From an uncultured Gemmatimonadota bacterium (lineage in GTDB: Bacteria > JAAXHH01), in assembly GCA_951812955.1 (NCBI GenBank), contig OX638340.1, forward strand, positions 384,001-448,000: DNA of 64,000 nucleotides. Direction: 5' to 3'. The first letter of the stretch is position 1. Each line of letters opens with the position of its first letter. The position numbers were made by a program, and so were the translations under genes. The notes below the pieces were generated by a model. That model had not been told where the DNA came from. It ran no database searches and saw only the letters and a list, made by a program, of their open reading frames with translations. Of this stretch, positions 5,774 to 42,615 are shown one piece after another.

Positions 5774-5847
5774 GCGCCAGTAGCTCAGCTGGATAGAGCG
5801 ACGGCCTCCGGAGCCGTAGGTCAGAGGTTCGAATCCTCTCTGGCGTA
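5774..5847 (+). tRNA. tRNA-Arg (anticodon CCG)
   Basis: Cloverleaf folded by hand. Acceptor GCGCCAG/CTGGCGT; D arm GCTC-AGCTGGATA-GAGC; anticodon stem ACGGC/GCCGT with loop CTCCGGA (anticodon CCG); T arm AGAGG-TTCGAAT-CCTCT; discriminator A. No encoded CCA. Confidence 0.85.
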
Positions 5848-5896
5848 TAACCCCCGCGGATCAGCCTTCTCTGGCGTATATCCCCGCGGATCAGCC
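5838..5896. repeat. Tandem direct repeat (29 + 28 bp) duplicating the tRNA 3' end (att-like)
   Basis: ctctggcgtataacccccgcggatcagcc (5838-5866, begins inside the tRNA) and ctctggcgtatatccccgcggatcagcc (5869-5896). Confidence 0.8.
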
Positions 5897-17682: not shown

Positions 17683-19131
17683 ATGATCCAGATCAAAGAA
17701 ATCGACCTCCGCATCCAGAACATGCGCACCCGCATGCCCTTCAAATTTGGCATATCGACCATGACGGCCGTGCCGCACCTGGTGCTTCGCATGGAACTGG
17801 AAGTGAACGGACGCACCGGCAGCGGATATTCCGCGGATCACCTGCCGCCGAAGTGGTTCACGAAGAACCCGGAGACGTCCCTCGAGGACGAAGTAGGGGA
17901 CATGATCTCCGTTATCCGCCACGCAAGCGACGCCGCGCTGGCCCTGGGACCCGCGCCCGATCTGTTCACCCTCTGGCTCGAACTCTACCAGGCCCAGAAG
18001 ATCTGGGGCAACGGGAGAGGTTTTGCGCCACTCCTGTGGGGCCTGGGAAACAGCCTGGTGGAAAGGGCCATGATCGAGGCTTTCTGCCGCATACAGGGCA
18101 CGGATTTCGGTAAAGCCGTGCGATCAAACGCCTTCGGCATTCGTTTCGATGCGTTCAATAGCCGTTTGAAGGGCCTGGCGCCCGCCGATGTGTTGCCCGG
18201 CTCCCCGATCACAGTCACCAACGTGCGCCATACCGTAGGGCTGGGAGACCCCCTGACCACGCAGGATATACCGCCGGAGGAGCTTTGCAACGACGGGCTG
18301 CCCCAGTCGCTGGACGAAGTCATCGACACCTATGGCATAACGTACTTCAAGATCAAGCTGTTCGGGGATGTAGCACGGGATATAGATCGCCTGAAGCAGA
18401 CGGCCAGTATCATCGACGGGCGATTGAACCAGTATGCGTTCACGCTGGACGGCAATGAAAACTACGGAGACATGGAAACGTTCCGGTCCTTCTGGGAATC
18501 ACTGCGGGCCGACCGTAATCTGGCAGGATTCCTCGGGCGGCTAATCTGCATCGAGCAGCCATTGCATCGCGATATAGCGCTGGATAAAGCACTCAGTGAG
18601 CATTTCGAGGCATGGCCTGACAGGCCACCATTCATTATCGACGAATCCGATGGGGACATCGGCGACCTGGAACGGGCCGTCGATATCGGTTACGCGGGTA
18701 CAAGTTACAAGAACTGTAAAGGAGTGTTCAAAGGGCTGTCCAACGCAGCTTATCTCGAGTACCTGGCAAGACAGCATCCGGACCGCCGGTACGTACTGAC
18801 GAGCGAAGACCTGTCCAACATCGGGCCGATCGCTCTTGCGCAGGACCTCGCAGTATTGGCCACATTAGGGGTTGACCACACAGAGCGGAACAGCCACCAT
18901 TACTTCAGAGGATTGACGACCTGGCCCCGCAAGATCCAGGAACAGATGCGATTATGTCATCCGGATCTGTTCAGTGTGCACGAAGAAGGTTTCACATGCA
19001 TGCACATCGAACAGGGTCGGATCAGTCTGGAGAGCGTAACGAAAAGTCCCTTCGGGGTAGGATTCGAATTCGACAGTTCAAAGCTTACCCCGCTGGATGA
19101 CTGGGAATATGCTACGCTGGATGTTGAATAA
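17683..19131 (+). CDS. Enolase-superfamily (MR/MLE-like) protein, substrate unknown
   Basis: Capping-domain pattern IKEIDLRIQNMRTRMPFKFGISTMTAVPHLVLRMELEVNGRTGSG. Barrel motifs KIKLFGD (KxK), LDGNENYG, IEQPL, IDESDG as metal ligands. Unusually long at 482 aa. Confidence 0.6.
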   Translation: MIQIKEIDLRIQNMRTRMPFKFGISTMTAVPHLVLRMELEVNGRTGSGYSADHLPPKWFTKNPETSLEDEVGDMISVIRHASDAALALGPAPDLFTLWLELYQAQKIWGNGRGFAPLLWGLGNSLVERAMIEAFCRIQGTDFGKAVRSNAFGIRFDAFNSRLKGLAPADVLPGSPITVTNVRHTVGLGDPLTTQDIPPEELCNDGLPQSLDEVIDTYGITYFKIKLFGDVARDIDRLKQTASIIDGRLNQYAFTLDGNENYGDMETFRSFWESLRADRNLAGFLGRLICIEQPLHRDIALDKALSEHFEAWPDRPPFIIDESDGDIGDLERAVDIGYAGTSYKNCKGVFKGLSNAAYLEYLARQHPDRRYVLTSEDLSNIGPIALAQDLAVLATLGVDHTERNSHHYFRGLTTWPRKIQEQMRLCHPDLFSVHEEGFTCMHIEQGRISLESVTKSPFGVGFEFDSSKLTPLDDWEYATLDVE

Positions 19132-19189
19132 CAAGCGTGTGAGTGATGTTCGACATTTTGGAATTTTCATCGCGCGGAGAATTTACACC

Positions 19190-19780
19190 GAACCGGACGT
19201 ACAAATAGAAAGTAAATTGTACGCTTTCTGGAGCAAAACATACAGACAGAGTATTCATTGTACATTTGAAGCAGACCGATGTACAAATCATATAACAATT
19301 GTACAAATATACAGAAACGCTATGAAAGCACGCGAAATGAGCCTTCGGGCAGAGATCGATAAGAAAATCCGGCCGGTCACGATGAGCTCGCGGCATCAAT
19401 TAGTACGTTTCGGAACCGAAAATCGGGATTTCGAGGGTAGTTTCGACCCACCCCCTGACCCTCCAGGGACCGGATCAGAGCACATATAGATTTACATAAT
19501 ATCTATTATGCGAAGTAGGGATTTAGAGGGGTATACGAGGGATTTTGGGTCCGGAGACTATAAATCAGCTCAGAATAGACTTTCGAGAGGTAATGTACAA
19601 AAGAAAGATTATTTGTACGAACGCGGTAAATCTGAATACAAAAGAGGTAATGTTTGTACGAATGGGTGAATAGCATGTACAGAGATAGATAGAATAGTAC
19701 AGTGATACTAGTACAAATATAAAGATGGTTGTACAAGTTTGTTGAGATATCGTACTAAGAATAGATGTATTGTACGCAGG
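19190..19780. repeat. Phased array of ~15 TTGTACAA-like palindromic motifs in an AT-rich ORF-free island
   Basis: GTAC cores at 19198, 19220, 19261, 19283, 19302, 19402, 19597, 19615, 19658, 19679, 19700, 19713, 19732, 19755 and 19773. Perfect TTGTACAA at 19298-19305 and 19728-19735. Spacings are mostly 18-23 bp or 41-43 bp. Confidence 0.7.
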
Positions 19781-19926
19781 GTTATCTTAATAAAAATCTT
19801 AATTTGTATTTTTCGTGGCATGACAAATTAAAATCGAAAGATGTAAATGAAACAAACCTCGTTTCTTCAGAATGCAACCTCCCGTTCAATCCAGCATTCC
19901 AATCACCAATTTCCAGAGTAAATTCC

Positions 19927-20919
19927 TTGCGGTCACAACGACTGGTCAACACTGATTTCCGAAAGATAATACTGGAAGAGTATGAGATTCCTTCCGTGCC
20001 GGATGACAGTGTACTCGTACAAAACGAATATACTGCTGTCAGCGTAGGCACTGAAGTCTACAATTATATACATGGGTGTGAACCGGGCGGTGAGCCTCGA
20101 TTCCCCAGGAACACGGGCTATTGCAACGCAGGTGTAGCGCTGAAGGTTGGTAGGGACGTGCAGGGGATTGTACCGGGGGATCGTGTCGCCGGCCAGGGAA
20201 ACCACGCAAGTCATTCCATAATGTCGGGCTTGATCAGCAAGGTGCCGGCGAACGTATCGTCCAGGGCGGCGGCGTTCATGGTGATGTGTGCGACCTCATT
20301 GCATGGTCACCGCGTTGCCCGTCCCGAGCTGGGCGAGGCCGTCGTAGTGACCGGCATGGGCATCGTCGGTCAATTGGCTGCATCCTTTGCCCGGCTGAGC
20401 GGCGCTGTACCCGTCATTGGCGTGGATTTGGACGACTTTCGCCTTCAAAAAGCCCGTGAACGCGGGGTCGACGTGTGTATCAACCCGGAAAAGGAACCTG
20501 ATGTGGCTGAGGCGGTGCGCCGGTACTGTGCGGCAGACGGTGCTGACTTGGTCATCGAAGCGACCGGGGTACCCTCCGTGTATCCAATGGCACTGACCCT
20601 GCCGAGACTCGGCGGCCGTTTGCTCGCCCTCGGTTCGCCGCGCGGATCGGTGGAAGTGAGCTTTTTCGCCGAGGTCCATCTGCGCGAGGTCACGATCCTG
20701 GGCGCCCACCAGCCCAAAACACCTGATGAGGCTGACCTGTACTATCCCTGGAGCAAGCGAAGGGACCGCGACCTGGTCCTCCGGCTCATGGGTGAAGGAA
20801 AACTGCCGATCGAAGACCTGATTACTCACGAAGCAAATCCCGCCGATTGCCAGTCCGTTTACGACATGCTTGCGGATCGTCCCAGGGATGTGCTTGGGGT
20901 GGTGTTCAGGTGGGTGTGA
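19927..20919 (+). CDS. MDR-superfamily (Zn-ADH-like) oxidoreductase
   Basis: ILEEYEIPSVPDDSVLVQNEYTAVSVGTE catalytic-domain start. Rossmann GxGxxG (VTGMGIVGQLAA). Start uncertain: TTG 19927, or the track ATG 19765 within AT-rich sequence. Confidence 0.7.
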   Translation: MRSQRLVNTDFRKIILEEYEIPSVPDDSVLVQNEYTAVSVGTEVYNYIHGCEPGGEPRFPRNTGYCNAGVALKVGRDVQGIVPGDRVAGQGNHASHSIMSGLISKVPANVSSRAAAFMVMCATSLHGHRVARPELGEAVVVTGMGIVGQLAASFARLSGAVPVIGVDLDDFRLQKARERGVDVCINPEKEPDVAEAVRRYCAADGADLVIEATGVPSVYPMALTLPRLGGRLLALGSPRGSVEVSFFAEVHLREVTILGAHQPKTPDEADLYYPWSKRRDRDLVLRLMGEGKLPIEDLITHEANPADCQSVYDMLADRPRDVLGVVFRWV

Positions 20920-21065: not shown

Positions 21066-21308
21066 ATGACCGTATCCATCAAGCTCTTTGCCACCCTGCG
21101 GAAATTCCTGCCCGAAAACGCGGTCAACAAAACCGCGACGCTTGAACTCGGAGACCAGGCCACGGCGAGCGATATCATCAAGCAATTGGACATCCCCGAT
21201 GGCCACATACACCTGATTCTGATCGACGGCAAGCACTCGGCTGAAGACACCCCCCTTACCGACGGCGCGGTGGTCAGCTTTTTTCCACCGATTGCCGGCG
21301 GGGCGTAG
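21066..21308 (+). CDS. MoaD/ThiS-family sulfur-carrier-like protein (C-terminus ...PPIAGG-A)
   Basis: 80 aa, beta-grasp pattern (SIKLFATLRKFLP...TLEL...ATASDII...HIHLILIDGKH). GG plus one extra Ala. RBS gaggaag. Confidence 0.7.
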   Translation: MTVSIKLFATLRKFLPENAVNKTATLELGDQATASDIIKQLDIPDGHIHLILIDGKHSAEDTPLTDGAVVSFFPPIAGGA

Positions 21309-21313
21309 GGTCG

Positions 21314-21607
21314 GTGTCCCACCATACCTTCTACGGATTCAAGCTGGAAGACGCCGTACGGGGACTGAAACGGGCGCTGCGGGACGAACAGATCCCCGTC
21401 GTATCGATCAGCGAGGATGAAAACAAGGTAGTCTTCGCAGTTCGGATCTCATCTGAAACAGGCAAAATCAGCCTGGTCGCCCATACCACCAATGCCCATC
21501 CCCTGGCCAGGCTCGGTGATATACCCGCGATCGAAGTCGCGGTCGACGATCATCTCCCCGATGTTAGGTCCGTGCTCACCATGGCATTTCTGAGAGGCGG
21601 AGGCTGA
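21314..21607 (+). CDS. Small PII-like (GlnB-superfamily-like) protein, unknown function
   Basis: 97 aa. FYGFKLEDAVRGLKRALRDEQIPVVSISE resembles the PII/DUF190 beta-alpha-beta start. 5-bp gaps to both neighbours. Confidence 0.35.
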   Translation: MSHHTFYGFKLEDAVRGLKRALRDEQIPVVSISEDENKVVFAVRISSETGKISLVAHTTNAHPLARLGDIPAIEVAVDDHLPDVRSVLTMAFLRGGG

Positions 21608-23843: not shown

Positions 23844-24748
23844 TGAAACCCCTGGTCGAATGCGTGCCCAATTTCAGCGAAGGGCGCGATTCCGGGATTG
23901 TCGAGGCTATCGCAGCCAGTATTGCGGCCTCCGATGGGGTCCACCTTGCCGGTATGGAAATGGACGCGGACCACAACCGCTCCGTGATCACCTTCATGGG
24001 CTCGCCCGAGGACGCGGCGGCGGCCGCCTATGAAGCCTGCAAGACAGCACGTTCGTTGATCGACCTGAGGCGTCACCGGGGCGTTCATCCACGCATCGGC
24101 GCTACGGACGTCCTGCCATTTGTCCCCCTTTCCGCCTGTTCCCTTTCCGAATGTATATCCCTCGCGCGGATCGTTGGTCGGCGGATCGGACAAACCCTCG
24201 ATATCCCGGTGTTCTTCTACGGCGACGCATCCACGGATTCGCGGCGCGGTACGCTTCACGCGATCCGCCGGGGAGGTTTCGAACGGCTGGTCCGGGAGAT
24301 GGGAACGGATCCGGATCTCTCACCCGACGTGGGACCCGATGTGGTCCATGTTTCCGCCGGCGCCACGGCGGTAGGCGTCCGCGATATTCTTGTCGCCTTC
24401 AACGTAAACCTGGATACCGATGACGTGCACGCCGCCCAGGCGATCGCGCGGGAGATCCGGGAGAAGAACGACGGTCTGCCCGGCGTCCGGGCACTGGGAC
24501 TCTTGCTGCCTTTTAAGGGCCGCGCACAGGTATCCATGAACCTGACCGACTATCGCAAGACGGATATGGCCCAGGCTTTCCGCGTGGTCGCTCGCCTCGC
24601 GGAAGCCCGGGGCGTAGGCGTCCTTGAGAGCGAGCTGATCGGACTCGCGCCCCGCGCGGCCATGGGCGGCGCGGAACCGGATGAATTACGTATTCGGCCC
24701 CTCGAGCCGTCCCGGTATCTTGAATACCACACGAGCCAATTCGACTGA
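23843..24748 (+). CDS. Glutamate formimidoyltransferase-like (formiminotransferase domain) protein
   Basis: MKPLVECVPNFSEGR N-terminus is the FTCD formiminotransferase hallmark. TGATG overlap with the preceding gene. Confidence 0.75.
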   Translation: MKPLVECVPNFSEGRDSGIVEAIAASIAASDGVHLAGMEMDADHNRSVITFMGSPEDAAAAAYEACKTARSLIDLRRHRGVHPRIGATDVLPFVPLSACSLSECISLARIVGRRIGQTLDIPVFFYGDASTDSRRGTLHAIRRGGFERLVREMGTDPDLSPDVGPDVVHVSAGATAVGVRDILVAFNVNLDTDDVHAAQAIAREIREKNDGLPGVRALGLLLPFKGRAQVSMNLTDYRKTDMAQAFRVVARLAEARGVGVLESELIGLAPRAAMGGAEPDELRIRPLEPSRYLEYHTSQFD

Positions 24749-24791
24749 CGGCCTTCCTCATTCCAGGTACCTTGACGGCGTACCGACGTCT

Positions 24792-24842
24792 CTAAATTAC
24801 TTGACTACCTCCCTCCCCCTTCATATCATGTTGACTAAATTA
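24792..24842 (+). promoter_or_regulatory. Putative promoter (TTGACT-N17-TATCAT) flanked by two CTAAATTA elements (candidate Rrf2 operator)
   Basis: CTAAATTA at 24792-24799 and 24835-24842. TTGACT at 24801-24806. TATCAT at 24824-24829. The Rrf2 gene starts at 24875. Confidence 0.35.
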
Positions 24843-24874
24843 GTAAACTAACGCCTGATGGCGAGGGAGGACGC

Positions 24875-25315
24875 ATGCGGGTATCGGCCAAGGCGGAGTA
24901 TGCTTGCAGGGCCGTGCTGGAGTTGACAAGGTACCATGAGAAGGCGGAAGTCATCCATATCGGCGACATTGCCGTCCGCCAGTCCATACCGGAGAAGTAC
25001 CTCGTTCAGATCCTGCTGCAGTTGCAGCGCGCCGGGCTGGTCAAGAGCAAACGCGGGGCGACAGGCGGATATGCGCTCGCCCGCGCACCGGGAGAGATCT
25101 CGCTGGGTGATGTGATCCGGGCGATGGACGGCGCGCTGATCGCCGTCGAGAGCCTGTCCGACGATACGAATGTGTCCGATCAAATGAGCGGCCAGCATGT
25201 ATTGAAGAACGTCTGGATGGATGTGCAGGATAGACTCGGCGAAATCATGGACGGGATCACTTTCGATGAAATCTCGCGACAGGCGCAAAAAAGCCTTTCC
25301 ATGTACTACATATAA
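24875..25315 (+). CDS. Rrf2-family transcriptional regulator (CymR/IscR-like)
   Basis: 146 aa; wHTH AKAEYACRAVLELTR...GDIAVRQSIPEKYLVQILLQLQRAGLVKSKRGATGGYALAR. Confidence 0.85.
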   Translation: MRVSAKAEYACRAVLELTRYHEKAEVIHIGDIAVRQSIPEKYLVQILLQLQRAGLVKSKRGATGGYALARAPGEISLGDVIRAMDGALIAVESLSDDTNVSDQMSGQHVLKNVWMDVQDRLGEIMDGITFDEISRQAQKSLSMYYI

Positions 25316-25325
25316 GGGATAGAAC

Positions 25326-26273
25326 TTGGCGTCCGGAACTGGAATAATCGACAGCGCACTCGATCTGATCGGGCATACCCCGCTCATTCGCCTTGGACGA
25401 ATAAATGAAAGTCCAGGCGTCCAAGTACTCGGCAAGCTCGAATCGGAAAACCCGGGCGGCAGCGTGAAGGACCGCGTTGGCCTGAGCATGATCCTGGACG
25501 CCGAACGAAGAGGCCTGCTCAGCCCGGGCGGTACGATCGTGGAGCCTACGAGCGGAAACACCGGGCTCGGCCTGAGCATGGTGGCCGCGGTGAAGGGCTA
25601 CAAGGTCATACTTGTCATGCCGGACAACATGAGTTCGGAGCGGCGGGTATTGCTGACCTCCTACGGTGCTGAACTGGTCCTGACGCCGGGTATGCTCGGC
25701 ATGGCCGGCGCTGTGCAGAAGGCGGAGGAGATTCTTCGGGAACATCCCGGTTATTTCATGCCCCAGCAGTTCAAGAATCCCGCCAACGTGGAGATACACC
25801 GCAAGACCACCGCGGAGGAGATCTGGGAAGCGACCGGCGGGAAAATCGACGCCTTTGTGGCAGCCGTGGGCACGGGGGGTACGTTGACGGGCGTGGGACA
25901 GTTTCTGAAGGAAAAGGACGAACGAATCCGCGTCATCGCGGTGGAACCATCATTGTCCCCGGTGATATCGGGCAAGCCAGTGGAGAGCCTGGTGCATGCC
26001 ATCCAGGGGATCGGCGCCGGGTTCATACCGGACATCCTGGATACGTCGATTATCGATGAAGTGATACTGATCGACGACGAGGACGCGTACCAGTCGGCCC
26101 GCCGTCTGGGCATGGAGGAAGGGCTCCTGGTGGGCATTTCGGCCGGCGCCAACGTATGCGCCAGCCTGAAGGTGGCAGAGAATATGGGAGAAGGGACGAT
26201 CGTGACCATCCTGTGCGATACCGGCGAAAGATACCTGAGCATCCGGGAATACTTTGAAGGACAGGGAGATTAA
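25326..26273 (+). CDS. cysK: Cysteine synthase family (CysK/CysM-like) PLP-dependent sulfhydrylase
   Basis: PLP lysine motif NPGGSVKDR, TSGNTG loop, GTGGT glycine loop. Whether it is CysK or CysM is ambiguous. Confidence 0.85.
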   Translation: MASGTGIIDSALDLIGHTPLIRLGRINESPGVQVLGKLESENPGGSVKDRVGLSMILDAERRGLLSPGGTIVEPTSGNTGLGLSMVAAVKGYKVILVMPDNMSSERRVLLTSYGAELVLTPGMLGMAGAVQKAEEILREHPGYFMPQQFKNPANVEIHRKTTAEEIWEATGGKIDAFVAAVGTGGTLTGVGQFLKEKDERIRVIAVEPSLSPVISGKPVESLVHAIQGIGAGFIPDILDTSIIDEVILIDDEDAYQSARRLGMEEGLLVGISAGANVCASLKVAENMGEGTIVTILCDTGERYLSIREYFEGQGD

Positions 26274-26289
26274 CAGGAGGAACCGTTTG

Positions 26290-26661
26290 ATGTCCGTTAC
26301 CGTACGAATTCCAACCCCGCTGCGCAAGTTGACCGGCAACCAGTCCGTAATCGAAATCGACGGCGATACCGTCGAATCGCTGATCGGGAACATGGAAGCA
26401 TCCTACCCCGGAATCAAGGATCGCATCTGCGACGAGTCCGGGAAAGTGCGGCGGTTCATCAACATCTACATCAACGAAGAAGATATCCGGTTTCTGGATG
26501 GCACCGGTACCACGGTGAAAACAGGAGACCGGATCTCCATCGTCCCCGCCATCGCCGGCGGTCTGGGCGACCTGGGCGGTCCAGGTGGTCAAGGCGGTCC
26601 CGTCAGTTCCGCCAATCCTGACGGTCCCGTCTGTCCTGTCGGTTCGCGGGACATTGGCTGA
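26290..26661 (+). CDS. MoaD/ThiS/CysO-like sulfur-carrier protein with a 33-aa Gly/Pro-rich extension after the GG motif
   Basis: MSVTVRIPTPLRKLTG...IEIDGDTVESLIGNME...ISIVPAIAGG followed by LGDLGGPGGQGGPVSSANPDGPVCPVGSRDIG. RBS caggagga. 17 bp after cysK. Stop overlaps the ThrB start (TGATG). Confidence 0.75.
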   Translation: MSVTVRIPTPLRKLTGNQSVIEIDGDTVESLIGNMEASYPGIKDRICDESGKVRRFINIYINEEDIRFLDGTGTTVKTGDRISIVPAIAGGLGDLGGPGGQGGPVSSANPDGPVCPVGSRDIG

Positions 26662-27566
26662 TGTCCTCCGTGCGGGTGCGCGTACCCGCGACGACCGGCA
26701 ACCTGGGTTCCGGCTACGACTGCGCCGGCATGGCCCTCGGCCTGTATAACACCATCGAGTTCGCCGAAACGGAATCCGGACTGGACGTGACCATGGAGGG
26801 CGAAGGCGCCGACGCGGTACCGCTCGATGAAGGCAACCTGTGCATCGTCTCCGCACGGGCCGTCTTCGATGCCGCGGACTGGCGACCCCCCGGTCTCCTG
26901 GCACGCATGCGCCACGCGATTCCTGTGTCACGGGGCCTGGGCAGCAGCGGAGTCGCCATCGTGGCGGGCGCCGTTGCGGCCAATGAACTCGCGGGAAGGC
27001 CGCTGGACAAGTCCGAACTCCTACGCATCTGTTCCGAACTGGAAGGCCATCCGGACAACGTCGTACCTTCCCTGCTCGGTGGCCTCTCCGTGAGCGGCGA
27101 GCGGTCGGGAGCGATCGTATACCAGACCTTCAGGGTTCCCGACGACATCAAGGCCATCGTGGCCATTCCCGAATTTACGCTCGACACGAAGGTTGCCCGC
27201 GGCGTCCTGCCTGAATCCGTATCCATGGAGGACGCGGTCTACAATCTTTGTAGCGTGGGACTGCTCATCGGCGGCATGATTACGGGTAATTACGCCTTGC
27301 TCAGGGAGGGCATGGCCGATCGCCTGCACCAGCCCTACCGGCAGCACCTGGTTCCTGGCCTGGCGGAGGTCACCGGAGACGCCCTGGATGCCGGTGCCCA
27401 CGGCGCAGCCCTCAGCGGCGCCGGACCGACGGCCATCGCCCTGGCGACGGAAGATCACGAGGGGATCGGGCAAGCCATGGTCGAAGCCTTCGCCCGGCAC
27501 GGCGTTTCCGGACAGTTCCGGATCCTCCCGATAGACAACGACGGATGCCAGGTGCTGCAGGACTGA
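26661..27566 (+). CDS. thrB: Homoserine kinase-like GHMP kinase
   Basis: VPATTGNLGSGYDCAGMAL (ThrB motif 1) and PVSRGLGSSGVAIVAGAVAAN (GHMP motif 2). Confidence 0.8.
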   Translation: MSSVRVRVPATTGNLGSGYDCAGMALGLYNTIEFAETESGLDVTMEGEGADAVPLDEGNLCIVSARAVFDAADWRPPGLLARMRHAIPVSRGLGSSGVAIVAGAVAANELAGRPLDKSELLRICSELEGHPDNVVPSLLGGLSVSGERSGAIVYQTFRVPDDIKAIVAIPEFTLDTKVARGVLPESVSMEDAVYNLCSVGLLIGGMITGNYALLREGMADRLHQPYRQHLVPGLAEVTGDALDAGAHGAALSGAGPTAIALATEDHEGIGQAMVEAFARHGVSGQFRILPIDNDGCQVLQD

Positions 27567-27611
27567 ATCCGCGCGAACCAGGCACACAACAACCTTACAG
27601 GTACCAACGTC

Positions 27612-28796
27612 ATGGGCGCACTCAAGGACATTCGCGTCATCGACCTCACCCGGGTGCTCGCGGGTCCATTCACGACCATGACCCTGGGCGACCTGGGCGC
27701 CGATATCATCAAGGTCGAACCCTTCGGCGGGGACGAGGCGCGGGGATTCGGTCCCTTCAAAGAGGGCGTAAGCGGCTACTTCGAGAATGTCAACCGGGGC
27801 AAGCAGAGCATCGCCATCGATCTGAAGCATCCTGACGGACGCTACCTGCTCCTCGAATTGATCGCGAAGTCGGACGTGCTGGTGGAGAACTTCAGGCCGG
27901 GCGTGATGAAGAAACTCGGACTGGACTACGAGACTTTGCAGGAGCGGTTCCCGGGGCTGATCTACGCGGCCTGTTCCGGATTCGGACAGACCGGACCCTA
28001 CGCCCGGCGCGGGGCCTACGACATGATCATCCAGGGTATGGGCGGTATCGTCAGCATAACGGGCGAACCTGACCGCCCTCCTGTACGGGTGGGCGTATCC
28101 ATCGGGGATATCGCCGCCGCGCTATATTCCTGTATCGGCATTCTCACGGCACTATTCACCAGGACGCAGACGGGCAGGGGACAGATGGTGGACATCGGCA
28201 TGCTGGACTGCCAGGTCGCTCTCCTCGAGAACGCCATCGCCCGTTACGACATGACGGGCACCGTTCCGGAACCGCTCGGGGCCAGGCATCCATCCATCAC
28301 GCCCTTTCAGGCTGTCGAGACCCGGGACGGATGGATCATGATCGCGGCGGGGAACAACGTGCTCTGGCGCCGGCTGTGCGAAGTCGTTGAACGTGAGGAC
28401 CTGGCCGACGACGCACGCTTCAGGGACAACAACCTGCGCACCGAAAACAACGCCGACCTGCACACGATCCTGAGCGATGTATTCCGAGAAAGTACGACGG
28501 AAGACTGGCTGAGACGATTGGATGCAGCTGAGATACCTTGCGGGCCCATCCAGAATGTCCGGCAGGTCGTGGAAGATCCCCAGGTACTTGCCCGCGACAT
28601 GATCGTGAATCTCCTGCACCCTATCGCCGGCTCCCTGCGTGTAGCCGGTTCTCCAATAAAACTCTCAGAAACCCCGCCGGAAGTCACCCGGCACGCCCCC
28701 GCCCTGGGTGAACATACCGATCAGGTGCTGAAGTCGCTGCTCCAGGCGACCGGGGACGACCTGGCGCGCTGGCGCGAATCGGGTGCAATTCGTTAG
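27612..28796 (+). CDS. Family III CoA-transferase (CaiB/BaiF/formyl-CoA transferase-like)
   Basis: IRVIDLTRVLAGPFTTMTLGDLGADIIKVEP N-terminus; catalytic Asp in ...GAYDMIIQGMGG. Confidence 0.85.
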   Translation: MGALKDIRVIDLTRVLAGPFTTMTLGDLGADIIKVEPFGGDEARGFGPFKEGVSGYFENVNRGKQSIAIDLKHPDGRYLLLELIAKSDVLVENFRPGVMKKLGLDYETLQERFPGLIYAACSGFGQTGPYARRGAYDMIIQGMGGIVSITGEPDRPPVRVGVSIGDIAAALYSCIGILTALFTRTQTGRGQMVDIGMLDCQVALLENAIARYDMTGTVPEPLGARHPSITPFQAVETRDGWIMIAAGNNVLWRRLCEVVEREDLADDARFRDNNLRTENNADLHTILSDVFRESTTEDWLRRLDAAEIPCGPIQNVRQVVEDPQVLARDMIVNLLHPIAGSLRVAGSPIKLSETPPEVTRHAPALGEHTDQVLKSLLQATGDDLARWRESGAIR

Positions 28797-31812: not shown

Positions 31813-32808
31813 TTACTTCTTCTCTTCGATCCAGCTCATCATGCTGCGCAATTGACGTCCGACCTCCACGATCTTCTTCTCCGACGCATTGCGTCTGAGC
31901 GCGTGCATGACCGGGGCGTTGGCCTGGTTCTCGAGCATCCATTCCCGGGCGAAGGCGCCGGACTGGATCTCGGCGAGAATGCGTTTCATCTCGGCGCGGG
32001 TCTCTTCGTTTACGATCCGCGGACCGCGGGTCAGGTCGCCGAATTCGGCCGTGTTGCTGACGGAATAGCGCATGCCTTCTATGCCGCCCTCGTACATCAG
32101 GTCCACGATGAGCTTCAGTTCGTGGAGACACTCGAAGTAGGCGATTTCGGGTTGGTACCCGGCCTCGACCAGGGTCTCGAAACCGGCCATGACGAGTTCG
32201 GACGTTCCGCCGCAGAGCACGGACTGTTCACCGAACAGGTCGGTCTCGGTTTCTTCCCGGAAGGTCGTTTCGATGACGCCGCCGCGGGTGCCGCCGATGC
32301 CCTTGGCATAGGCCAGGCCGATATCCCGGGCTTTGCCCGTGTGGTTCTGGTTGACCGCGAGCAGGCAGGGTACGCCGCCGCCTTCCTCGAACACCCGGCG
32401 CACGAGATGCCCCGGCCCCTTGGGCGCGACCATGAAGACGTCCACGTTATCGGGCGGGACGACCTGGTTGAAATGGATGTTGAACCCGTGGGCGAAGGCG
32501 AGGGCGTTGCCCTCTACCAGGTTCGGCGCCACGTAATCGTTGAATAGACGCGACTGGAGTTCGTCGTTGACCAGCATCATGATAATGTCGGCTTCGGCGG
32601 CCGCTTGTTCCACGGTACGGGGCTCGAATCCGTCCTTGACGGCCTGATCCCACGAGCCACCCTTACGCAGTCCCACGATGACGTCCAGTCCGGAATCGCG
32701 TAGGGAAAGTGCGTGGGCGTGTCCCTGGCTGCCGTAACCGACAACCGCGATGGTCTTGCCGTCCAATATGCCCAGGTCGGCGTCCTGATCGTAATACAGT
32801 CGAGCCAT
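31813..32808 (-). CDS. ilvC: Ketol-acid reductoisomerase
   Basis: 331 aa; [17 protein letters not shown] Rossmann motif. RBS GAAGGAGAA. Confidence 0.95.
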
Positions 32809-32820
32809 TGGTTCTCCTTC

Positions 32821-32952
32821 GTGCCGGACCGGCGTTCAGGCGAGGTCGGCGGTGATCATTTGGCGTGCCAGACCGGCGTTCAGGCCGGGTCGGCGGTGAT
32901 CATTTGGCGTGCCGGTCCGGCGTTCAGGCCAGGTCGGCGGTGATCTTCTTGC
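32821..32952. repeat. 3 x 44-bp tandem repeat; copy 3 is the ilvN 3' coding end
   Basis: gtgccggaccggcgttcaggcgaggtcggcggtgatcatttggc / gtgccagaccggcgttcaggccgggtcggcggtgatcatttggc / gtgccggtccggcgttcaggccaggtcggcggtgatcttcttgc. Confidence 0.85.
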
Positions 32953-33484
32953 GTTCCTTCTCCCAGACGGGAAGCGGGGCTTCCGGCGACGGGGTATCCT
33001 TGCTCTGGGATTCACGGGCGAGCGCCACCCGGCCGGTCCGGGCGATTTCCCGCACGCCGAAGGGCCGCACCATGTTGATGATGGCGTCGATCTTGTCCTC
33101 GTTGCCCGTAGCCTCCAGCATGATCGTCTTCTGGTTTATATCGACGATCTTCGCCTTGAAGATGTCAGCGATCTGAACGAGTTCCTGCCGCGTGGACTGA
33201 CTGGCGTTTACCTTGATCAGGGCGAGTTCCCTGTTGATGAAATTCTCGCCGGTCAGATCTACGACCCGGATCACGTCCACCAGCCGGTTCAACTGCTTGA
33301 TGATCTGTTCGATGATCGCCTCGTCACCCTGGGTGACGATGGTCATGCGGGCCGTGCCGGGTTCCGCCGCTTCGCCGACGGCAATGCTGTCGATGTTGAA
33401 ACCCCGTCCGCTGAACAGCCCGGAAATACGGGCGAGGACCCCAAAACGGTTCTCGACCACCATGGATATGGTATGGCGTGCCAT
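32924..33484 (-). CDS. ilvN: Acetolactate synthase small (regulatory) subunit
   Basis: 186 aa; ACT domain ISMVVENRFGVLARISGLFSGRGFNIDSIAVG. Confidence 0.9.
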   Translation of the reverse strand: MARHTISMVVENRFGVLARISGLFSGRGFNIDSIAVGEAAEPGTARMTIVTQGDEAIIEQIIKQLNRLVDVIRVVDLTGENFINRELALIKVNASQSTRQELVQIADIFKAKIVDINQKTIMLEATGNEDKIDAIINMVRPFGVREIARTGRVALARESQSKDTPSPEAPLPVWEKERKKITADLA

Positions 33485-39179: not shown

Positions 39180-40175
39180 TTAAGGTGCGGGCAGGTTGCT
39201 AAGCACGGTCCTCGCCCTGGTGCGGATATAGGCGTTTTCGTCGGAAACCATCCGGGCCCTTAGTACCCTTTCCAGGTCTTCGTCGATCGAGGTCGGCACC
39301 TGCTCCTGCAGCCGGTTGATCGCGTTGATTCTGAGGGCCGGATTCTCGTCGAAGACCAGTGTGTGGATCATGGCGTCTCTGATCCCCTCGTCAAAAGGAT
39401 ACCGGGAGAGGGCGTTGAACGCCTCGCCCCTGACCCCGGCATTCGAGTCCGTTTTCAAGGCGGTGACGAGGGCATCCTTGATCTCATGCTCCGAATGCAG
39501 GATTTCGGAATCGCTCACGGCGTTCACCGCCCGCAGCCGGACGCCGGGATTCTGTTCATTAAGTACGGCAAAGGTGAGTACACGTTGTATGCCGGGATCG
39601 TCGAGCGTTCCTCTGATCTGCACGGGCCGGACGGCTTCGAACTGGAATTCCAACATGCCATCGGGGGCGCCGGAATCCACGAACCGAACGTTTGAAATGG
39701 CCACGTCGTCATTGGTCAACAGGTCCGTCTGATCCATGCCCGGCGTCGCGAATCCAATGGAACGGTCTCCCTGGAAGGCCAGGTAGTAACCGGCAACCAG
39801 GCCGATGAACAACAGCAGTGCTCCCCCGAGGACGGAGCGGTAGGAAGGAAAGGTGTTTATCGTAACCCTTTGCAAGCCGTCTACTATGCGACCTGCCCAC
39901 CCGCTTGGGATGTGGAGACCCGGGCGGCCGAGTGTCACGTTGGACCAAAATCGGTTTCGAGCTTCATTCAGGTCTGCCGCACCAGGCCTGGCAGGGGCGG
40001 CTTCCCCCATGACCAGTCTGAATTCATCCAGACGGGCGCGGTACGCCCGGCATTGATCACATGATTCGAGATGGACGTCCAACCGCCGCTGATCTGCATC
40101 GGACAATTCACCGTATTGGGAGAGTTCCAGCCATTCTTCCCATTTCGTGTGAGACCGGCTCCTGTCTTCTTTCAT
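39180..40175 (-). CDS. Anti-sigma factor: N-terminal zinc-finger (HxxxCxxC) domain, TM segment, C-terminal HEAT repeats
   Basis: LDVHLESCDQCRAYRARL ZAS-like motif. Hydrophobic segment. HEAT-like repeats in the C-half. Its ATG overlaps the sigma-factor stop (ATGA); the internal ATG at 40175 was chosen. Confidence 0.7.
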   Translation of the reverse strand: MKEDRSRSHTKWEEWLELSQYGELSDADQRRLDVHLESCDQCRAYRARLDEFRLVMGEAAPARPGAADLNEARNRFWSNVTLGRPGLHIPSGWAGRIVDGLQRVTINTFPSYRSVLGGALLLFIGLVAGYYLAFQGDRSIGFATPGMDQTDLLTNDDVAISNVRFVDSGAPDGMLEFQFEAVRPVQIRGTLDDPGIQRVLTFAVLNEQNPGVRLRAVNAVSDSEILHSEHEIKDALVTALKTDSNAGVRGEAFNALSRYPFDEGIRDAMIHTLVFDENPALRINAINRLQEQVPTSIDEDLERVLRARMVSDENAYIRTRARTVLSNLPAP

Positions 40176-40831
40176 TTTCGTATGTCCTCGAGTTGACTGC
40201 GCAGTCTTCGGGTGGCATCGAAAAGGTATTTCTTTACCGTGCCTTCGGCACATTCCATGATTCCCGCTATCTCCCTCAGTTTGAATCCTTCGTGGTGGCG
40301 CAACACAAACACCGTTCGCAGACGGGGAGAAAGTGTACCGACGGCGGACCGGATCCGCGAAGCGATTTCGCTGTTGATGACTGCCGCGTCCGGCCGTTCG
40401 GGGGTAACGGGCGTAACACCGTAAGTGACCGTAGCCTGGTTTTCGTCGAACTTGTCTTCGATAGGGATGAACCGCCTGGTCCGGTTCCGCGACCGATGCG
40501 TGAGGCAGACATTGGTGACGATCCGGTACAGGTAGGTGGAAAACCGGCTGCGGAATTCGAAATCGGGCAGTGCCTTGAATACACGCATGAAGACTTCCTG
40601 GTATACATCCTTTGCGTCGTCCAGGTCGCCCACGAAGGACACGGCCATGGACAGCACTTTCTCGTCGTATCTGTATACGAGTTCTTCCAGGGCCCGCATG
40701 TCGCCTCCCCGGGCCTTGAGAATCAGCCTGCGCTCCTCCAGGTCCGTGCGATTTCCTGCCGAATCGTTATCCATGTGCTCTTCCCGATCATCCGGTGCGA
40801 TTCGGCCGTCGAGTTTACGGGCAGTTTCCAC
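40172..40831 (-). CDS. ECF-subfamily RNA polymerase sigma factor (sigma-24 type)
   Basis: Region 2 (LVYRYDEKVLSMAVSFVGDLDDAKDVYQEVFMRVFKAL) and region 4 (LSPRLRTVFVLRHHEGFKLREIAGIM). Confidence 0.85.
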   Translation of the reverse strand: METARKLDGRIAPDDREEHMDNDSAGNRTDLEERRLILKARGGDMRALEELVYRYDEKVLSMAVSFVGDLDDAKDVYQEVFMRVFKALPDFEFRSRFSTYLYRIVTNVCLTHRSRNRTRRFIPIEDKFDENQATVTYGVTPVTPERPDAAVINSEIASRIRSAVGTLSPRLRTVFVLRHHEGFKLREIAGIMECAEGTVKKYLFDATRRLRSQLEDIRK

Positions 40832-41508
40832 GTGGTTACCTGGTCACGTCGTGGTGCATGTGCGTGTAACTAAACTTCGAGAAACTTGCTGTCTCCGATC
40901 GGGCGCTTGGTGACCATGTGCGGGCACCTGATGATGACCTTTCTCGAGCCCTTGTGACTTTACGCTGGCGCGTGGCGCCTGGAATCCATATGCGGGATGC
41001 GGGCGCTTTATGTTCATGAGACCGTGTCTACATCGAATTGGTTGTGGACTAACGCGTTTTTTTAAAAGGAGACCGCGGGAGTATGCGGCGTATACACGAT
41101 CAACACGGTGCGCAATGCAGTCTTTAGGTGATTCAACGCACGGGAACGAGGAAAGTCGAGGGAATTACGGTTGAGGCATGTGGCGATGTGACGATACTGG
41201 CGTGTGGCGAGGTCTGTCCGGCGGACCGGATTCGAGTTCATGATCGTCAGTAAAGGCAGGAATGAGCTGGAAGGTGTTTGAAGGAGCGGGAAGGAGCTGG
41301 ACGAGCATATAACCAAAGGAATCAAAGACTTACGAATCCCAAGAAGGCAGGACGCCAGCGGCAGAGCAAGGATCTGCCGACTGGTCGGAATCGATCGACA
41401 TGATCGGAATCCGTTGTGTCAATAGCCGGAGGGTGGCCATTCAATCCGGTCGGTGGAACCGCACGAATTTTACGCAACCGGAAACAGGCCGCTCGATACG
41501 ACAGGCGT

Positions 41509-41703
41509 TCAGCCGTCCTTCGAGGTAGACGAACCTGACGTATTCTGATTCTCTTCGGCGGGCTCTTTCTTCTGTGCTTTCTTGAATTCGGTGATCCCCT
41601 GGCCCAATCCCTTGGCCAGTTCAGGGAGCTTCTTCGCGCCAAATAGGACCATGACGATTACAAGAATAATAATCAGTTCGGTCGTGCCGAAACTACCGAG
41701 CAT
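41509..41703 (-). CDS. tatA: Twin-arginine translocase subunit TatA/E
   Basis: 64 aa; [53 protein letters not shown]. Confidence 0.9.
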
Positions 41704-41922
41704 TTAAATCACCTCCTCAGAACGCAGGATACCTTTATTGCCCTGGTTTGTCAAGCGGCAATAAAAGGACTTCCATTCTGCCGCTTAGCTGCCAACGACC
41801 CGGCGCAGTCGCATGGGCATGCCGTTTAGAATACTTGCATAGAAGCAATTTGCGTGTTTACTTATTCCCTGACCACAAATTTTGAAGTCGCTGCCGGTTG
41901 ATTTTATACGTTCAAGGAGGAC

Positions 41923-42165
41923 ATGGTGACTGTACGCATTGTATACTGCGCTGATTGAAGCTATGAACAAGACGCCGCCGGGTTGGCGGTGAAATTACTT
42001 GAGTATTACAAACACGATATCGAGCAGTTGCAGCTTGTGCCTTCCGGGGGCGGCAGGTTCGAAGTCACCGTGGATGATTCGCTGATCTTCTCCAAACTGG
42101 GAACCGACCGGTTTCCCGAATACGGGGAGGTCAAGGACGCCATCGAGGCATCGATCGCGGGTTGA
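41923..42165 (+). CDS. SelW/Rdx-family selenoprotein (in-frame TGA = Sec at 41956-41958; CxxU motif)
   Basis: My translation across the TGA: MVTVRIVYCADUSYEQDAAGLAVKLLEYYKHDIEQLQLVPSGGGRFEVTVDDSLIFSKLGTDRFPEYGEVKDAIEASIAG. RBS caaggagga. The track shows only the C-terminal 60 aa (41983..42165). Confidence 0.7.
41973..41991 (+). promoter_or_regulatory. SECIS-like hairpin 15 nt downstream of the in-frame UGA
   Basis: CGCCGCC-GGGUU-GGCGGUG: 7-bp stem including one G-U pair, G/U-containing apical loop. Confidence 0.5.
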
Positions 42166-42273: not shown

Positions 42274-42615
42274 ATGAATATCTACGTTGCGCTGGAAGAC
42301 GAGATCGCCGTGCTTCGCATCGAGGGCAGATTGTGGGAAGAAGGAGACAGCGTTGAGCTGGATCGGATGATCGACGATACCCTTGACCGGGGATGCACGC
42401 GGTTCGTTGCCGATTTGACCGGCGTGCCCATCATGAACAGTTCCGGGTTGGGTTCGCTGATCGCGGCCATGAAGAAAATACGTTCCAGGTCCGGGGAGAT
42501 GGTGCTCACCGGCGTCAACGACCGCCTGGATCAACTGTTCCGGATCACCCGGCTGTACACGGTCTTCAAGAAGTATGACGATGTGGACGCCGCCGTGGAA
42601 AACATGCATGCCTGA
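42274..42615 (+). CDS. STAS-domain anti-sigma-factor antagonist (SpoIIAA/RsbV-like)
   Basis: 113 aa; phosphorylatable Ser region DLTGVPIMNSSGLGSLIAA. Confidence 0.8.
   Translation: MNIYVALEDEIAVLRIEGRLWEEGDSVELDRMIDDTLDRGCTRFVADLTGVPIMNSSGLGSLIAAMKKIRSRSGEMVLTGVNDRLDQLFRITRLYTVFKKYDDVDAAVENMHA

What the first reader, a model, noticed from the sequence alone, without database searches (positions are those of the whole stretch)
26560..26661. Sulfur-carrier homolog carries a 33-residue Gly/Pro-rich tail after its GG motif
MoaD/ThiS/CysO proteins normally end at GG, or carry a few extra residues that a JAMM protease removes. Here the reading frame continues for 33 residues (LGDLGGPGGQGGPVSSANPDGPVCPVGSRDIG) before the TGA that overlaps the thrB ATG. 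The tail DNA contains a hairpin (CCGTCAG-N11-CTGACGG at about 26607-26632). A second carrier paralog at 21066-21308 ends GG-A. A long tail would block thiocarboxylation until processed. This suggests regulated maturation, or a translational-coupling/attenuation role for the hairpin.
Basis: partly seen in the sequence, partly recalled or inferred. Interest (0 to 1): 0.55.

Follow-up and report, generated by a model that had tools for sequence, protein, structure and literature searches.

The report
Hypervariable 9-base-repeat tail on sulfur carrier
A CysO-type sulfur-carrier protein really does carry a 32-residue glycine-rich tail after its GG motif, but the tail is a fast-evolving 9-base tandem repeat that varies from 5 to 56 residues among close relatives, so it looks like a tolerated, probably clipped-off appendage rather than a regulatory device.

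Summary
ORF 26290-26661 encodes a CysO-like beta-grasp carrier that ends in AIAGG at residue 91. It is followed by 32 residues (not 33), and its TGA shares a base with the thrB ATG.

The tail is neither a frameshift nor unique to this sequence. All 98 distinct tails from the closest relatives (Gemmatimonadota MAGs) stay in frame and end xDx[G/N/D]. Lengths run from 5 to 56 aa, and 91 of 98 equal 5+3k.

The DNA is a degenerate 9-nt tandem array (unit about CCNGNCGGT). Autocorrelation is 0.57-0.69 at lag 9 against about 0.25 at other lags. Strains with 98-99% identical flanks differ only by 9-nt-multiple indels inside the tail.

AlphaFold2 gives the tail a pLDDT of about 41, which suggests disorder. 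The reported hairpin is perfect only in this window, folds no better than shuffles (z = -0.84), and its MFE context changes among relatives.

A second, equally variable 9-nt array sits in a loop of MtaB in the same clade.

Best reading: a near-neutral coding minisatellite sits in the short pro-peptide and thrB-coupling spacer. It is presumably removed before thiocarboxylation, but no JAMM protease or E1 lies in the 64 kb. I rate it a new variant of a known kind, of moderate interest.

The parts
24875..25315 (+). Rrf2-family (CymR/IscR-like) regulator, first gene of the conserved block
   Evidence: Pfam Rrf2 E = 7.6e-34. TIGR00738 scores 115 bits and the CymR model is below its cut-off. The position is the same in L081-L090.
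25326..26273 (+). CysK-type (O-acetylserine sulfhydrylase A-like) PLP enzyme; stop TAA at 26271-26273
   Evidence: TIGR01139 cysK scores 427 bits against a cut-off of 351. The best PDB relatives are CysK/OASS-A entries (2EGU, 2Q3B). No M. tuberculosis CysM is among the top 60.
26275..26280 (+). AGGAGG Shine-Dalgarno sequence of the carrier gene, 9 nt before the ATG
   Evidence: Read directly from the sequence.
26290..26562 (+). Carrier core, aa 1-91, a CysO-like beta-grasp ending ...VPAIAGG (GG codons 26557-26562)
   Evidence: Pfam ThiS covers aa 5-91. phmmer against M. tuberculosis CysO 3DWG_C gives E = 9.6e-25 and the match ends at GG. AF2 pLDDT is 84-91. Foldseek against 3DWG_C gives target-normalised TM 0.91, rmsd 1.5 A and 49% identity.
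26563..26658 (+). 32-codon tail: a degenerate 9-nt tandem array of 10.7 units (consensus about CCNGNCGGT) encoding LGD LGG PGG QGG PVS SAN PDG PVC PVG SRD IG
   Evidence: TRF finds period 9. Autocorrelation is 0.59 at lag 9 and 0.54 at lag 18, against 0.13-0.34 at other lags. The 9-nt stacking is shown. pLDDT is about 41. GC3 is 0.56 against 0.74-0.78 in flanking genes, and GGT makes up 41% of Gly codons pooled over eight clade tails against 15% in the window's flanking genes.
26600..26624 (+). Inverted repeat CCGTCAG-N11-CTGACGG formed by two neighbouring repeat units; judged incidental
   Evidence: It is present in the window MFE structure, but the region scores z = -0.84. The 3' arm is C[T/A]GGCGG in L081, L001, L089 and L090. 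Loop length and MFE context differ among them.
26644..26661 (+). Conserved tail end TCG CGG GAC ATT GGC TGA (S-R-D-I-G-stop). It holds the thrB translation-initiation region: a GGAC motif (weak SD, or complementary to GTCC of ATG TCC) and the stop/start overlap TGATG
   Evidence: 98 of 101 distinct tails end xDx[G/N/D]. The same junction is found in L001-L005, L081, L082, L089 and L090. The assignment of a function to GGAC is inference.
26661..27566 (+). thrB (homoserine kinase); its ATG overlaps the carrier stop
   Evidence: TIGR00191 scores 267 bits over profile positions 1-303. This is the first start codon after a stop in its frame.
21066..21308 (+). Second ThiS/Ub-Mut7C-like carrier paralog, ending GG-A
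   Evidence: Translation. Pfam ThiS E = 1.5e-10 and Ub-Mut7C E = 4.4e-9. Relatives call an 80-aa gene at the same place.

Best explanation
The gene encodes a CysO-family beta-grasp sulfur carrier. Its primary product carries a lineage-specific C-terminal extension.

Ancestral state, still seen in relatives:
- A 2-aa tail (outgroup Gemmatimonadota) or a 5-aa tail (L-R-D-N/R-G within the clade).
- The tail codons double as the translation-initiation region of the downstream, overlapping thrB (TGATG).

What happened in this clade:
- A 9-nt unit (about GGT-CCN-GNC, read as X-Gly-Gly or Pro-Gly-X tripeptides) became a tandem array between the Leu after GG and the conserved xDxG end.
- The array grows and shrinks by replication slippage in whole units (0-17 units observed) and then decays by point mutation.
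- Unit indels preserve the frame. Frameshifts would also wreck termination-reinitiation at thrB. So the array persists as translated, disordered, near-neutral sequence.

Inferred from family chemistry, not shown here: the extension, whatever its length, must be clipped after GG by a JAMM/MPN-type or other peptidase encoded elsewhere. Only then can an E1-like enzyme adenylate and thiocarboxylate the carrier. Because the tail is discarded, its sequence and length would be free to drift.

The 7-bp hairpin is a by-product of two quasi-palindromic repeat units.
For: Family and fold:
- ThiS profile matches end to end, finishing at GG.
- Best solved relative is M. tuberculosis CysO, E = 1e-24, and it ends at GG.
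- The AF2 core is confident, and Foldseek gives target-normalised TM 0.91 to 3DWG_C.

Clade-wide, hypervariable tail:
- The 37 nearest clusters have tails of 11-47 aa. Members inside eight of those clusters range from 5 to 56 aa.
- 98 of 101 distinct tails end xDx[G/N/D], and 91 of those 98 have length 5+3k.

9-nt array:
- Autocorrelation at lag 9 is 0.57-0.69 in six tails; control genes are flat.
- All tails stack in 9-nt register.

Slippage dynamics:
- Window versus L081 and L001 shows 95-99% nt identity and zero gaps over 2127 flanking nt.
- The tail differs by indels that are multiples of 9 nt (two 9-nt insertions in L081, a 72-nt block in L001). It has 4 mismatches in 96 nt, 3 of them non-synonymous.

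Dispensable length: the 5-aa form LRD[NR]G is common on 3.7-4.2 Mb contigs.

Disorder: pLDDT is about 41.

Ancestral coupling: outgroup Gemmatimonadota with the same Rrf2-cysK-carrier-thrB block have tails SY or KQ and an overlapping or abutting thrB start.

JAMM link in the family:
- Relatives with 7-aa tails have Prok-JAB immediately downstream.
- More distant Gemmatimonadota loci (L045, L060; 92-aa carriers) have Prok-JAB in the cluster.
- Precedents are CxnE (GG plus a decapeptide, with JAMM CxnF) and QbsE (GG-CF, with QbsD) (PMC5925218).

Parallel case: MtaB in the same genomes has a 0-42-aa insert in one loop, with lengths 5+3k in 25 of 28 sequences. It is absent in outgroups.
Against: - No JAMM/MPN protease and no ThiF/MoeZ E1 occur among about 55 ORFs of the 64 kb window or within 10 kb in L081 and L082.
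- A search seeded with a Gemmatimonadota JAB found no hit on the contigs that carry tailed carriers. That test has little power, because only 120 hits are listed.
- Cleavage is therefore entirely inferred.
- The neighbouring PLP enzyme is CysK-like, not the CysO-dependent CysM type. So the carrier's acceptor enzyme is unknown.
- Tail lengths centre on 26-32 aa rather than collapsing to the minimum. This is compatible with drift but does not exclude weak selection for a tail.
- Lag-9 arrays are not clearly enriched in clade DNA beyond the two cases: about 1.2 per 100 kb against 0.76 per 100 kb in unrelated loci.
Confidence: 0.7

Rival explanations
1. The tail is not removed. In this thrB-linked lineage the beta-grasp protein no longer works through a C-terminal thiocarboxylate. 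It might act as a regulatory or scaffold partner of CysK or ThrB, or in some other Ubl-like role, and the disordered tail is simply tolerated.
For: No JAMM or E1 is in the window or the neighbourhood. The adjacent enzyme is a sulfide-using CysK type rather than a CysM type. The gene is locked to thrB rather than to JAB, unlike the other relatives examined.
Against: The core is under strong constraint. GG and 35 other columns are invariant across 54 sequences, and identity to M. tuberculosis CysO is 49-55% over the whole domain. E1 and JAMM genes are often encoded elsewhere in genomes; MoeZ is unlinked in the chuangxinmycin producer (PMC5925218). The second carrier also needs trimming (GG-A).
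Confidence: 0.15
2. One reading: the tail is a specific regulatory pro-peptide (regulated maturation), and/or its mRNA hairpin attenuates or couples thrB translation.
For: The tail blocks the GG terminus by family chemistry. The hairpin appears in the window's MFE fold. The TGATG overlap is conserved.
Against: Tail sequence and length are not conserved: 5-56 aa across 98 distinct versions. Fold energy is z = -0.84 and 35 of 200 shuffles fold at least as well. The perfect stem is window-specific, and the structures differ in four close relatives. Other subclades lack the PVS-PAN-PGG-PVC module altogether. There is no Rfam match and no U-run after the stem.
Confidence: 0.07
3. The Gly-X-Y periodic tail is a selected structural module, such as a collagen-like or polyproline-II helix used for oligomerisation or host interaction, or a tunable length 'rheostat'.
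For: Gly triplet periodicity is significant in 13 of 36 tails. Lengths are quantised in tripeptides. Two long tails give weak Collagen hits of 13-17 bits. One MtaB ortholog has a precomputed Collagen Pfam hit.
Against: All hits fall below the Pfam cut-off of 27.2 bits, and the window tail gives none. The longest uninterrupted G-x-x run is 7 triplets or fewer. The window tail itself is not significantly periodic (p = 0.22). AF2 pLDDT is about 41. Minimal 5-aa forms are common. The DNA-level 9-nt register explains the quantisation without invoking protein structure. Both host proteins are cytosolic housekeeping enzymes.
Confidence: 0.05
4. Artefact: a sequencing or assembly frameshift or a lost stop codon; or a nascent carrier-ThrB fusion that uses the tail as a linker.
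For: P0311 (386 aa) reads from the tail into ThrB after a -1 shift.
Against: About 100 independent in-frame versions come from many assemblies, including complete chromosomes. The exact window protein recurs (P0249). P0311 carries a second frameshift inside thrB, so it looks like an error-prone contig.
Confidence: 0.02

Closest known systems
CysO (M. tuberculosis Rv1335) and actinomycete CysO-type sulfur carriers (PDB 3DWG/3DWM, 4N6E)
   Same: They share the beta-grasp fold. Identity is 49% by Foldseek and roughly half in the phmmer alignment, across the whole domain. Both have the ...PA[IV]AGG end, and the gene lies next to a cysteine-synthase-family PLP enzyme.
   Different: CysO ends at GG. 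Here GG is followed by 32 residues. The neighbouring enzyme is CysK-like, not CysM-like. No mec (JAMM) or moeZ gene is nearby. The gene is translationally overlapped with thrB.
Precursor sulfur carriers trimmed by JAMM proteases: QbsE/QbsD (GG-CF), HcyS/HcyD (GG-A), CxnE/CxnF (GG plus the decapeptide SEAARAEESR)
   Same: All carry an extension after GG that has to be removed before adenylation. Relatives of this carrier with 7-aa tails have Prok-JAB immediately downstream (PMC5925218; HcyS is from my own knowledge).
   Different: Those extensions are 1-10 residues and the protease gene is adjacent. Here the extension is 5-56 residues, is built from a 9-nt VNTR, is hypervariable within a species-level cluster, and has no protease gene in 64 kb.
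Eukaryotic ubiquitin-like precursors (ubiquitin fusions, SUMO, NEDD8, Atg8) processed to expose the C-terminal Gly
   Same: The logic is the same: a beta-grasp protein, an internal GG, and a C-terminal pro-sequence removed by a dedicated protease (my own knowledge).
   Different: It is a different branch of the superfamily, and those pro-sequences are not tandem-repeat arrays.
GC-rich 9-bp coding tandem repeats: mycobacterial PGRS (CGGCGGCAA, giving Gly-Gly-Ala/Asn) and the Bacillus anthracis BclA collagen-like (GPT)n region
   Same: These have a 9-bp unit, Gly-rich tripeptide repeats, and strain-to-strain length polymorphism through unit gain and loss (my own knowledge; the behaviour here is shown).
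   Different: Those arrays make up the body of surface proteins and have presumed functions. Here the array is a short appendix on a cytosolic 91-aa carrier, with a second one in a loop of MtaB.

Membership tests
ThiS/MoaD sulfur-carrier superfamily (PF02597) | Profile match over the whole domain | tested here: met
   PF02597 E = 2.9e-15, aa 5-91, profile positions 1-76 of 76. TIGR01687 moaD_arch scores 49.5 bits, exactly at its cut-off.
ThiS/MoaD sulfur-carrier superfamily (PF02597) | Beta-grasp fold | tested here: met
   The AF2 core has pLDDT 84-91. Foldseek against 3DWG_C gives E = 4.7e-11, target-normalised TM 0.91 and rmsd 1.5 A.
ThiS/MoaD sulfur-carrier superfamily (PF02597) | Gly-Gly at the C-terminus of the active protein | tested here: inconclusive
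   GG is invariant (G90, G91) but internal in the translation product, with 32 residues after it. Whether it becomes terminal depends on processing, which cannot be tested here.
CysO-type cysteine-biosynthesis carrier (CysO-CysM-Mec-MoeZ system) | Closest similarity to characterised CysO | tested here: met
   The best PDB sequence hit is 3DWG_C / 3DWM at E = 9.6e-25. These are also the best structural hits.
CysO-type cysteine-biosynthesis carrier (CysO-CysM-Mec-MoeZ system) | Partner CysM-type (O-phosphoserine, CysO-thiocarboxylate-dependent) sulfhydrylase | tested here: not met
   The adjacent PLP enzyme passes the cysK model (427 bits against a cut-off of 351). It fails the cysM models (317 against 394, and 309 against 413). 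The top 60 PDB relatives are named cysteine synthase, OASS or close paralogs; none is M. tuberculosis CysM.
CysO-type cysteine-biosynthesis carrier (CysO-CysM-Mec-MoeZ system) | JAMM hydrolase (Mec) and E1 (MoeZ) encoded in the genome | not testable with these tools
   None is found in the 64 kb window or within 10 kb in L081 and L082.
JAMM-processed precursor carriers (QbsE/HcyS/CxnE type) | Extra residues after GG | tested here: met
   32 residues here and 5-56 in the clade.
JAMM-processed precursor carriers (QbsE/HcyS/CxnE type) | Cognate JAMM gene in the same cluster | tested here: not met
   It is absent here and in L081-L084, L087, L089 and L090. It is present in more distant relatives L085/L086, L045 and L060.
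JAMM-processed precursor carriers (QbsE/HcyS/CxnE type) | Demonstrated cleavage after GG | not testable with these tools
   This needs mass spectrometry or an in vitro assay.
Coding minisatellite / VNTR | Head-to-tail repeat with a fixed period | tested here: met
   Autocorrelation at lag 9 and lag 18 is 0.54-0.69 in 6 of 6 tails, against 0.13-0.40 at other lags. TRF finds period 9. The window has only two such arrays in 64 kb, and codon shuffles give none.
Coding minisatellite / VNTR | Copy-number polymorphism among near-identical genomes, in whole units | tested here: met
   Indels that are multiples of 9 nt (two of 9 nt, one of 72 nt) sit between sequences whose flanks are 95-99% identical and gap-free. 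91 of 98 tail lengths equal 5+3k.
Collagen triple-helix repeat (PF01391) | Profile match above the gathering score; long uninterrupted Gly-X-Y run | tested here: not met
   The window tail gives no hit. The best hits among other tails score 13-17 bits against a cut-off of 27.2. The longest G-x-x run is 7 triplets or fewer.
Attenuator or structured regulatory RNA | Structure more stable than chance and conserved or covarying among relatives | tested here: not met
   z = -0.84. There is no Rfam match at E <= 1. MFE structures differ among five close relatives.

The most novel reading that the evidence does not exclude
The 9-nt-quantised Gly-X-Y arrays may be more than tolerated junk. They could be a clade-specific class of selected, tunable in-frame minisatellites placed at permissive sites of housekeeping proteins (here the carrier pro-peptide and the MtaB TRAM loop). 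The carrier array length could set how fast the pro-carrier is matured, or how efficiently thrB is re-initiated. That would make it a heritable, rapidly mutable rheostat linking sulfur-carrier activation to homoserine phosphorylation in symbiotic Gemmatimonadota.
Probability: 0.08. Interest if true: 0.6.

Novelty: new variant of a known kind. Interest (0 to 1): 0.4.

Why it matters
Sulfur carriers with short post-GG extensions trimmed by JAMM proteases are known. An extension of up to 56 residues, encoded by a hypervariable 9-nt minisatellite and conserved as a feature across a whole clade, has not to my knowledge been described.

If the tail is clipped, it shows that the trimming step tolerates pro-peptides of almost any length. 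That is useful for understanding JAMM/Ubl-protease substrate rules and for engineering carriers.

If the tail is not clipped, the lineage would contain a CysO homolog that cannot be thiocarboxylated in the canonical way.

The paired MtaB case also gives a clean natural example of coding VNTRs settling at structurally permissive sites, and a potential strain-typing marker for these uncultured bacteria.

Tried and rejected
- An exact look-up of the window protein's contig returned nothing, although the identical protein P0249 is in the cluster table.
- I tried to show a JAMM in the same genomes by matching 'longest_contig' values between carrier hits and hits to a Gemmatimonadota JAB. No match was found, but the test also fails to recover known JAB-linked carriers, so I treat it as uninformative.
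- An Rfam scan of 24700-27700 at E <= 1 found nothing.
- The collagen-like reading is rejected. Pfam hits are sub-threshold and Gly-X-Y runs are short.
- A genome-wide enrichment of 9-nt arrays is not supported by the DNA at hand. Excluding the tail itself, there are about 1.2 per 100 kb in clade loci against 0.76 per 100 kb in 791 kb of unrelated loci. The extra array in L004 is an unrelated Thr/Pro lipoprotein linker.
- An apparent compensatory change in the hairpin in L001 (A-U to U-A) was considered. I judged it more simply explained by homogenisation between the direct-repeat units CCCGTC[A/T]GT, and the MFE folds disagree among relatives.
- The carrier-ThrB fusion P0311 is rejected as a likely assembly error because it has a second frameshift.

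Full report
**Observation**

The ORF at 26290-26661 (+) starts 9 nt after an AGGAGG and encodes 123 aa.
- Pfam ThiS (PF02597) matches aa 5-91 over the entire profile, and the match ends at ...VPAIAGG.
- After the GG codons (26557-26562) the frame stays open for 32 codons: LGDLGGPGGQGGPVSSANPDGPVCPVGSRDIG.
- The TGA at 26659-26661 shares its last base with the ATG of thrB (26661-27566; TIGR00191, 267 bits).
- The inverted repeat CCGTCAG-N11-CTGACGG is real but lies at 26600-26624.
- The second carrier (21066-21308) ends GG-A.

So the description holds, with small corrections.

**What the protein is**

- The best solved relative by sequence is M. tuberculosis CysO (3DWG_C, E = 9.6e-25), aligned from residue 1 to the terminal GG of CysO.
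- An AlphaFold2 model built on 54 homologs has a confident beta-grasp core (pLDDT 84-91) and a tail with pLDDT of about 41.
- Foldseek returns 3DWG_C, 4N6E_B and 3DWM_A first (target-normalised TM 0.91, rmsd 1.1-1.5 A).
- The gene sits in a block Rrf2 - cysK-like - carrier - thrB - CoA-transferase.
- The PLP enzyme passes the cysK model, fails the cysM models, and resembles OASS-A structures.

**Relatives**

The 37 nearest 90%-identity clusters have cores about 88-96% identical to the window over the aligned domain. All carry tails of 11-47 aa. The next tier (about 68-80% identical) has 0-10 aa, most often 7.

Genomic loci:
- Nine relatives from MAGs, most of them labelled Gemmatimonadetes or Gemmatimonadota, share the same four-gene block and the same TGATG junction. 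Their tails are 5, 11, 26, 35, 38, 38, 39, 44 and 56 aa. Isolate names such as APA_bin_41 and IRC1_bin_16 suggest sponge metagenomes; that is my inference.
- Outgroup Gemmatimonadota with the same block have tails SY or KQ.
- Poribacteria-like relatives with the 7-aa tail SSDDETN have a Prok-JAB gene overlapping the carrier's end.
- Other Gemmatimonadota loci have PALP - Prok-JAB - TPR - carrier.

Opening eight clusters gave 101 distinct tails. Of these, 98 end xDx[G/N/D]. The three exceptions are a truncated protein, a frameshifted contig and one variant (LRERR). Lengths run from 5 to 56 aa, and 91 of 98 equal 5+3k. The 5-aa form LRD[N/R]G is frequent on 3.7-4.2 Mb contigs.

**Anatomy of the tail DNA**

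- In all six tails examined, nucleotide autocorrelation peaks sharply at lag 9 (0.57-0.69) and lag 18 (0.54-0.67). All other lags, including 3 and 6, stay at 0.13-0.40. The carrier core, cysK and thrB are flat.
- Written in rows of nine, every tail is a ladder of variants of one unit. The window reads CTGGGCGAC, CTGGGCGGT, CCAGGTGGT, CAAGGCGGT, CCCGTCAGT, TCCGCCAAT, CCTGACGGT, CCCGTCTGT, CCTGTCGGT, TCGCGGGAC, ATTGGC.
- Window, L081 and L001 are 95-99% identical with no gaps across 2127 nt of cysK, core and thrB. Inside the tail they differ by indels that are multiples of 9 nt (two 9-nt insertions in L081, a 72-nt block in L001). Window and L081 also differ by 4 substitutions in 96 nt, three of them non-synonymous.
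- Codon use in the tail is atypical. GC3 is 0.56 in the window tail against 0.74-0.78 in its neighbours. GGT makes up 41% of Gly codons pooled over eight clade tails, against 15% in the window's flanking genes. This is what a recently amplified unit would give.
- Composition across the 41 clade tails analysed is G 35%, L 13%, P 10%, D 9.5%, S 8%, R 7%. There is no Lys and almost no Glu or aromatics.

**The hairpin**

- The two arms are adjacent-but-one repeat units whose consensus is quasi-palindromic.
- The 126-nt region folds at -57.1 kcal/mol against -53.8 +/- 3.9 for shuffles (z = -0.84; 35 of 200 shuffles fold at least as well).
- The perfect stem depends on a window-specific GAC codon. 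Four close relatives have GGC at that position.
- One relative has a 9-nt larger loop, and the MFE structures of the five sequences disagree.
- Other subclades lack these units entirely. There is no Rfam match.

I therefore treat the hairpin as incidental.

**The conserved end**

- The last codons ([R/G/Q]-D-x-G, here CGG GAC ATT GGC) and the TGATG overlap are the only conserved part of the tail.
- They lie where the ribosome-binding region of thrB must be. The GGAC motif is a weak SD and is also complementary to GTCC of ATG-TCC.
- The carrier gene itself has a strong AGGAGG, but thrB does not.
- It is therefore a reasonable inference, not shown here, that thrB depends on termination-reinitiation by ribosomes that have read the carrier to its end. 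That would select against any frameshift in the array.

**A parallel case**

- The only other lag-9 array in the 64 kb is at 5451-5541. It lies inside MtaB (4244-5731; UPF0004 plus Radical_SAM) and encodes ...YSGPPGPPGPPGPDGQVG....
- 25 of 28 loop lengths equal 5+3k.
- The outgroup on the contig of L084 has the bare 5-aa loop.

The same process has therefore acted at two structurally permissive sites. This argues for a mutational, near-neutral origin rather than a carrier-specific device. A general excess of such arrays in clade DNA is not demonstrated.

**Mechanism**

Shown:
- a CysO-like fold with an invariant but internal GG;
- a clade-wide, in-frame, disordered, 9-nt-quantised hypervariable tail;
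- a conserved overlap with thrB;
- a non-conserved hairpin.

Inferred from established family chemistry (E1 adenylation of the C-terminal Gly carboxylate; JAMM trimming of QbsE, HcyS and CxnE; PMC5925218):
- the tail must be removed for carrier function;
- being discarded, it is free to drift.

Not resolved: no JAMM or E1 gene is in the window or near the gene in relatives. The indirect search had no power. The alternative that this lineage's protein is never trimmed and has another role therefore keeps appreciable probability.

**Verdict**

It is a new variant of a known kind (precursor sulfur carriers). What makes it notable is the length of the extension, its minisatellite origin and its extreme polymorphism.

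Noticed in passing
window 5451-5541 (inside ORF 4244-5731, +): A second 9-nt coding tandem array lies in the MtaB-like radical-SAM methylthiotransferase (..YSGPPGPPGPPGPDGQVGAHSPDD..). Orthologs of the same clade have loop lengths of 5-47 aa here (5+3k in 25 of 28). The outgroup has the bare 5-aa loop. One ortholog carries a precomputed Pfam Collagen hit.
   Followed up: yes
window 21066-21607 (+): A second ThiS/Ub-Mut7C-like carrier ends GG-A. It is followed 6 nt later by a conserved 97-aa ORF (21314-21607) with no Pfam or NCBIfam hit, and then by an OmpA-domain protein. The trio is syntenic in all the Gemmatimonadota relatives whose upstream gene tables were listed (L081-L084, L087).
   Followed up: partly
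window 25326-27566: The carrier is wedged between a CysK-type (not CysM-type) sulfhydrylase and thrB, under an Rrf2/CymR-like regulator. A link between the carrier and O-phosphohomoserine or homocysteine synthesis (compare Streptomyces metO next to a thrC-like gene, mentioned in PMC12172450) is conceivable but untested.
   Followed up: partly
P0242, P0248, P0253, P0312 (relatives of the carrier): Some relatives carry an in-frame 6-nt duplication in the first beta-strand (MSVTVRVRIPT instead of MSVTVRIPT).
   Followed up: no
P0311 (cluster of P0015): This 386-aa product reads from the carrier tail into ThrB after a -1 shift, which shows that a single-base slip in the array fuses the two proteins. 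A second frameshift inside thrB suggests an error-prone contig.
   Followed up: partly
window 32820-32945: A 44-nt unit repeated 2.9 times (92% matches) lies between ilvC (31813-32808, -) and the acetolactate synthase small subunit (32924-33484, -), overlapping the latter's 3' end.
   Followed up: no
window 57846-57911 and 53113-53204: There are two intergenic tandem repeats: a 16-nt unit x4.1 (TGCTTGACGCGTGCAA, partly palindromic) between divergent genes, and a 24-nt unit x3.9.
   Followed up: no
window 5837-6640: A 249-aa serine recombinase ORF (Resolvase plus Recombinase domains, - strand) lies directly after MtaB, next to a 30-nt x2 repeat at 5837-5896. It may be a remnant of a mobile element.
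   Followed up: no
window 42575-45112 (+), 18001-20000 and 40001-42000: An 845-aa ORF has no Pfam hit. Two stretches have lower G+C (0.49 and 0.54, against about 0.60 elsewhere).
   Followed up: no
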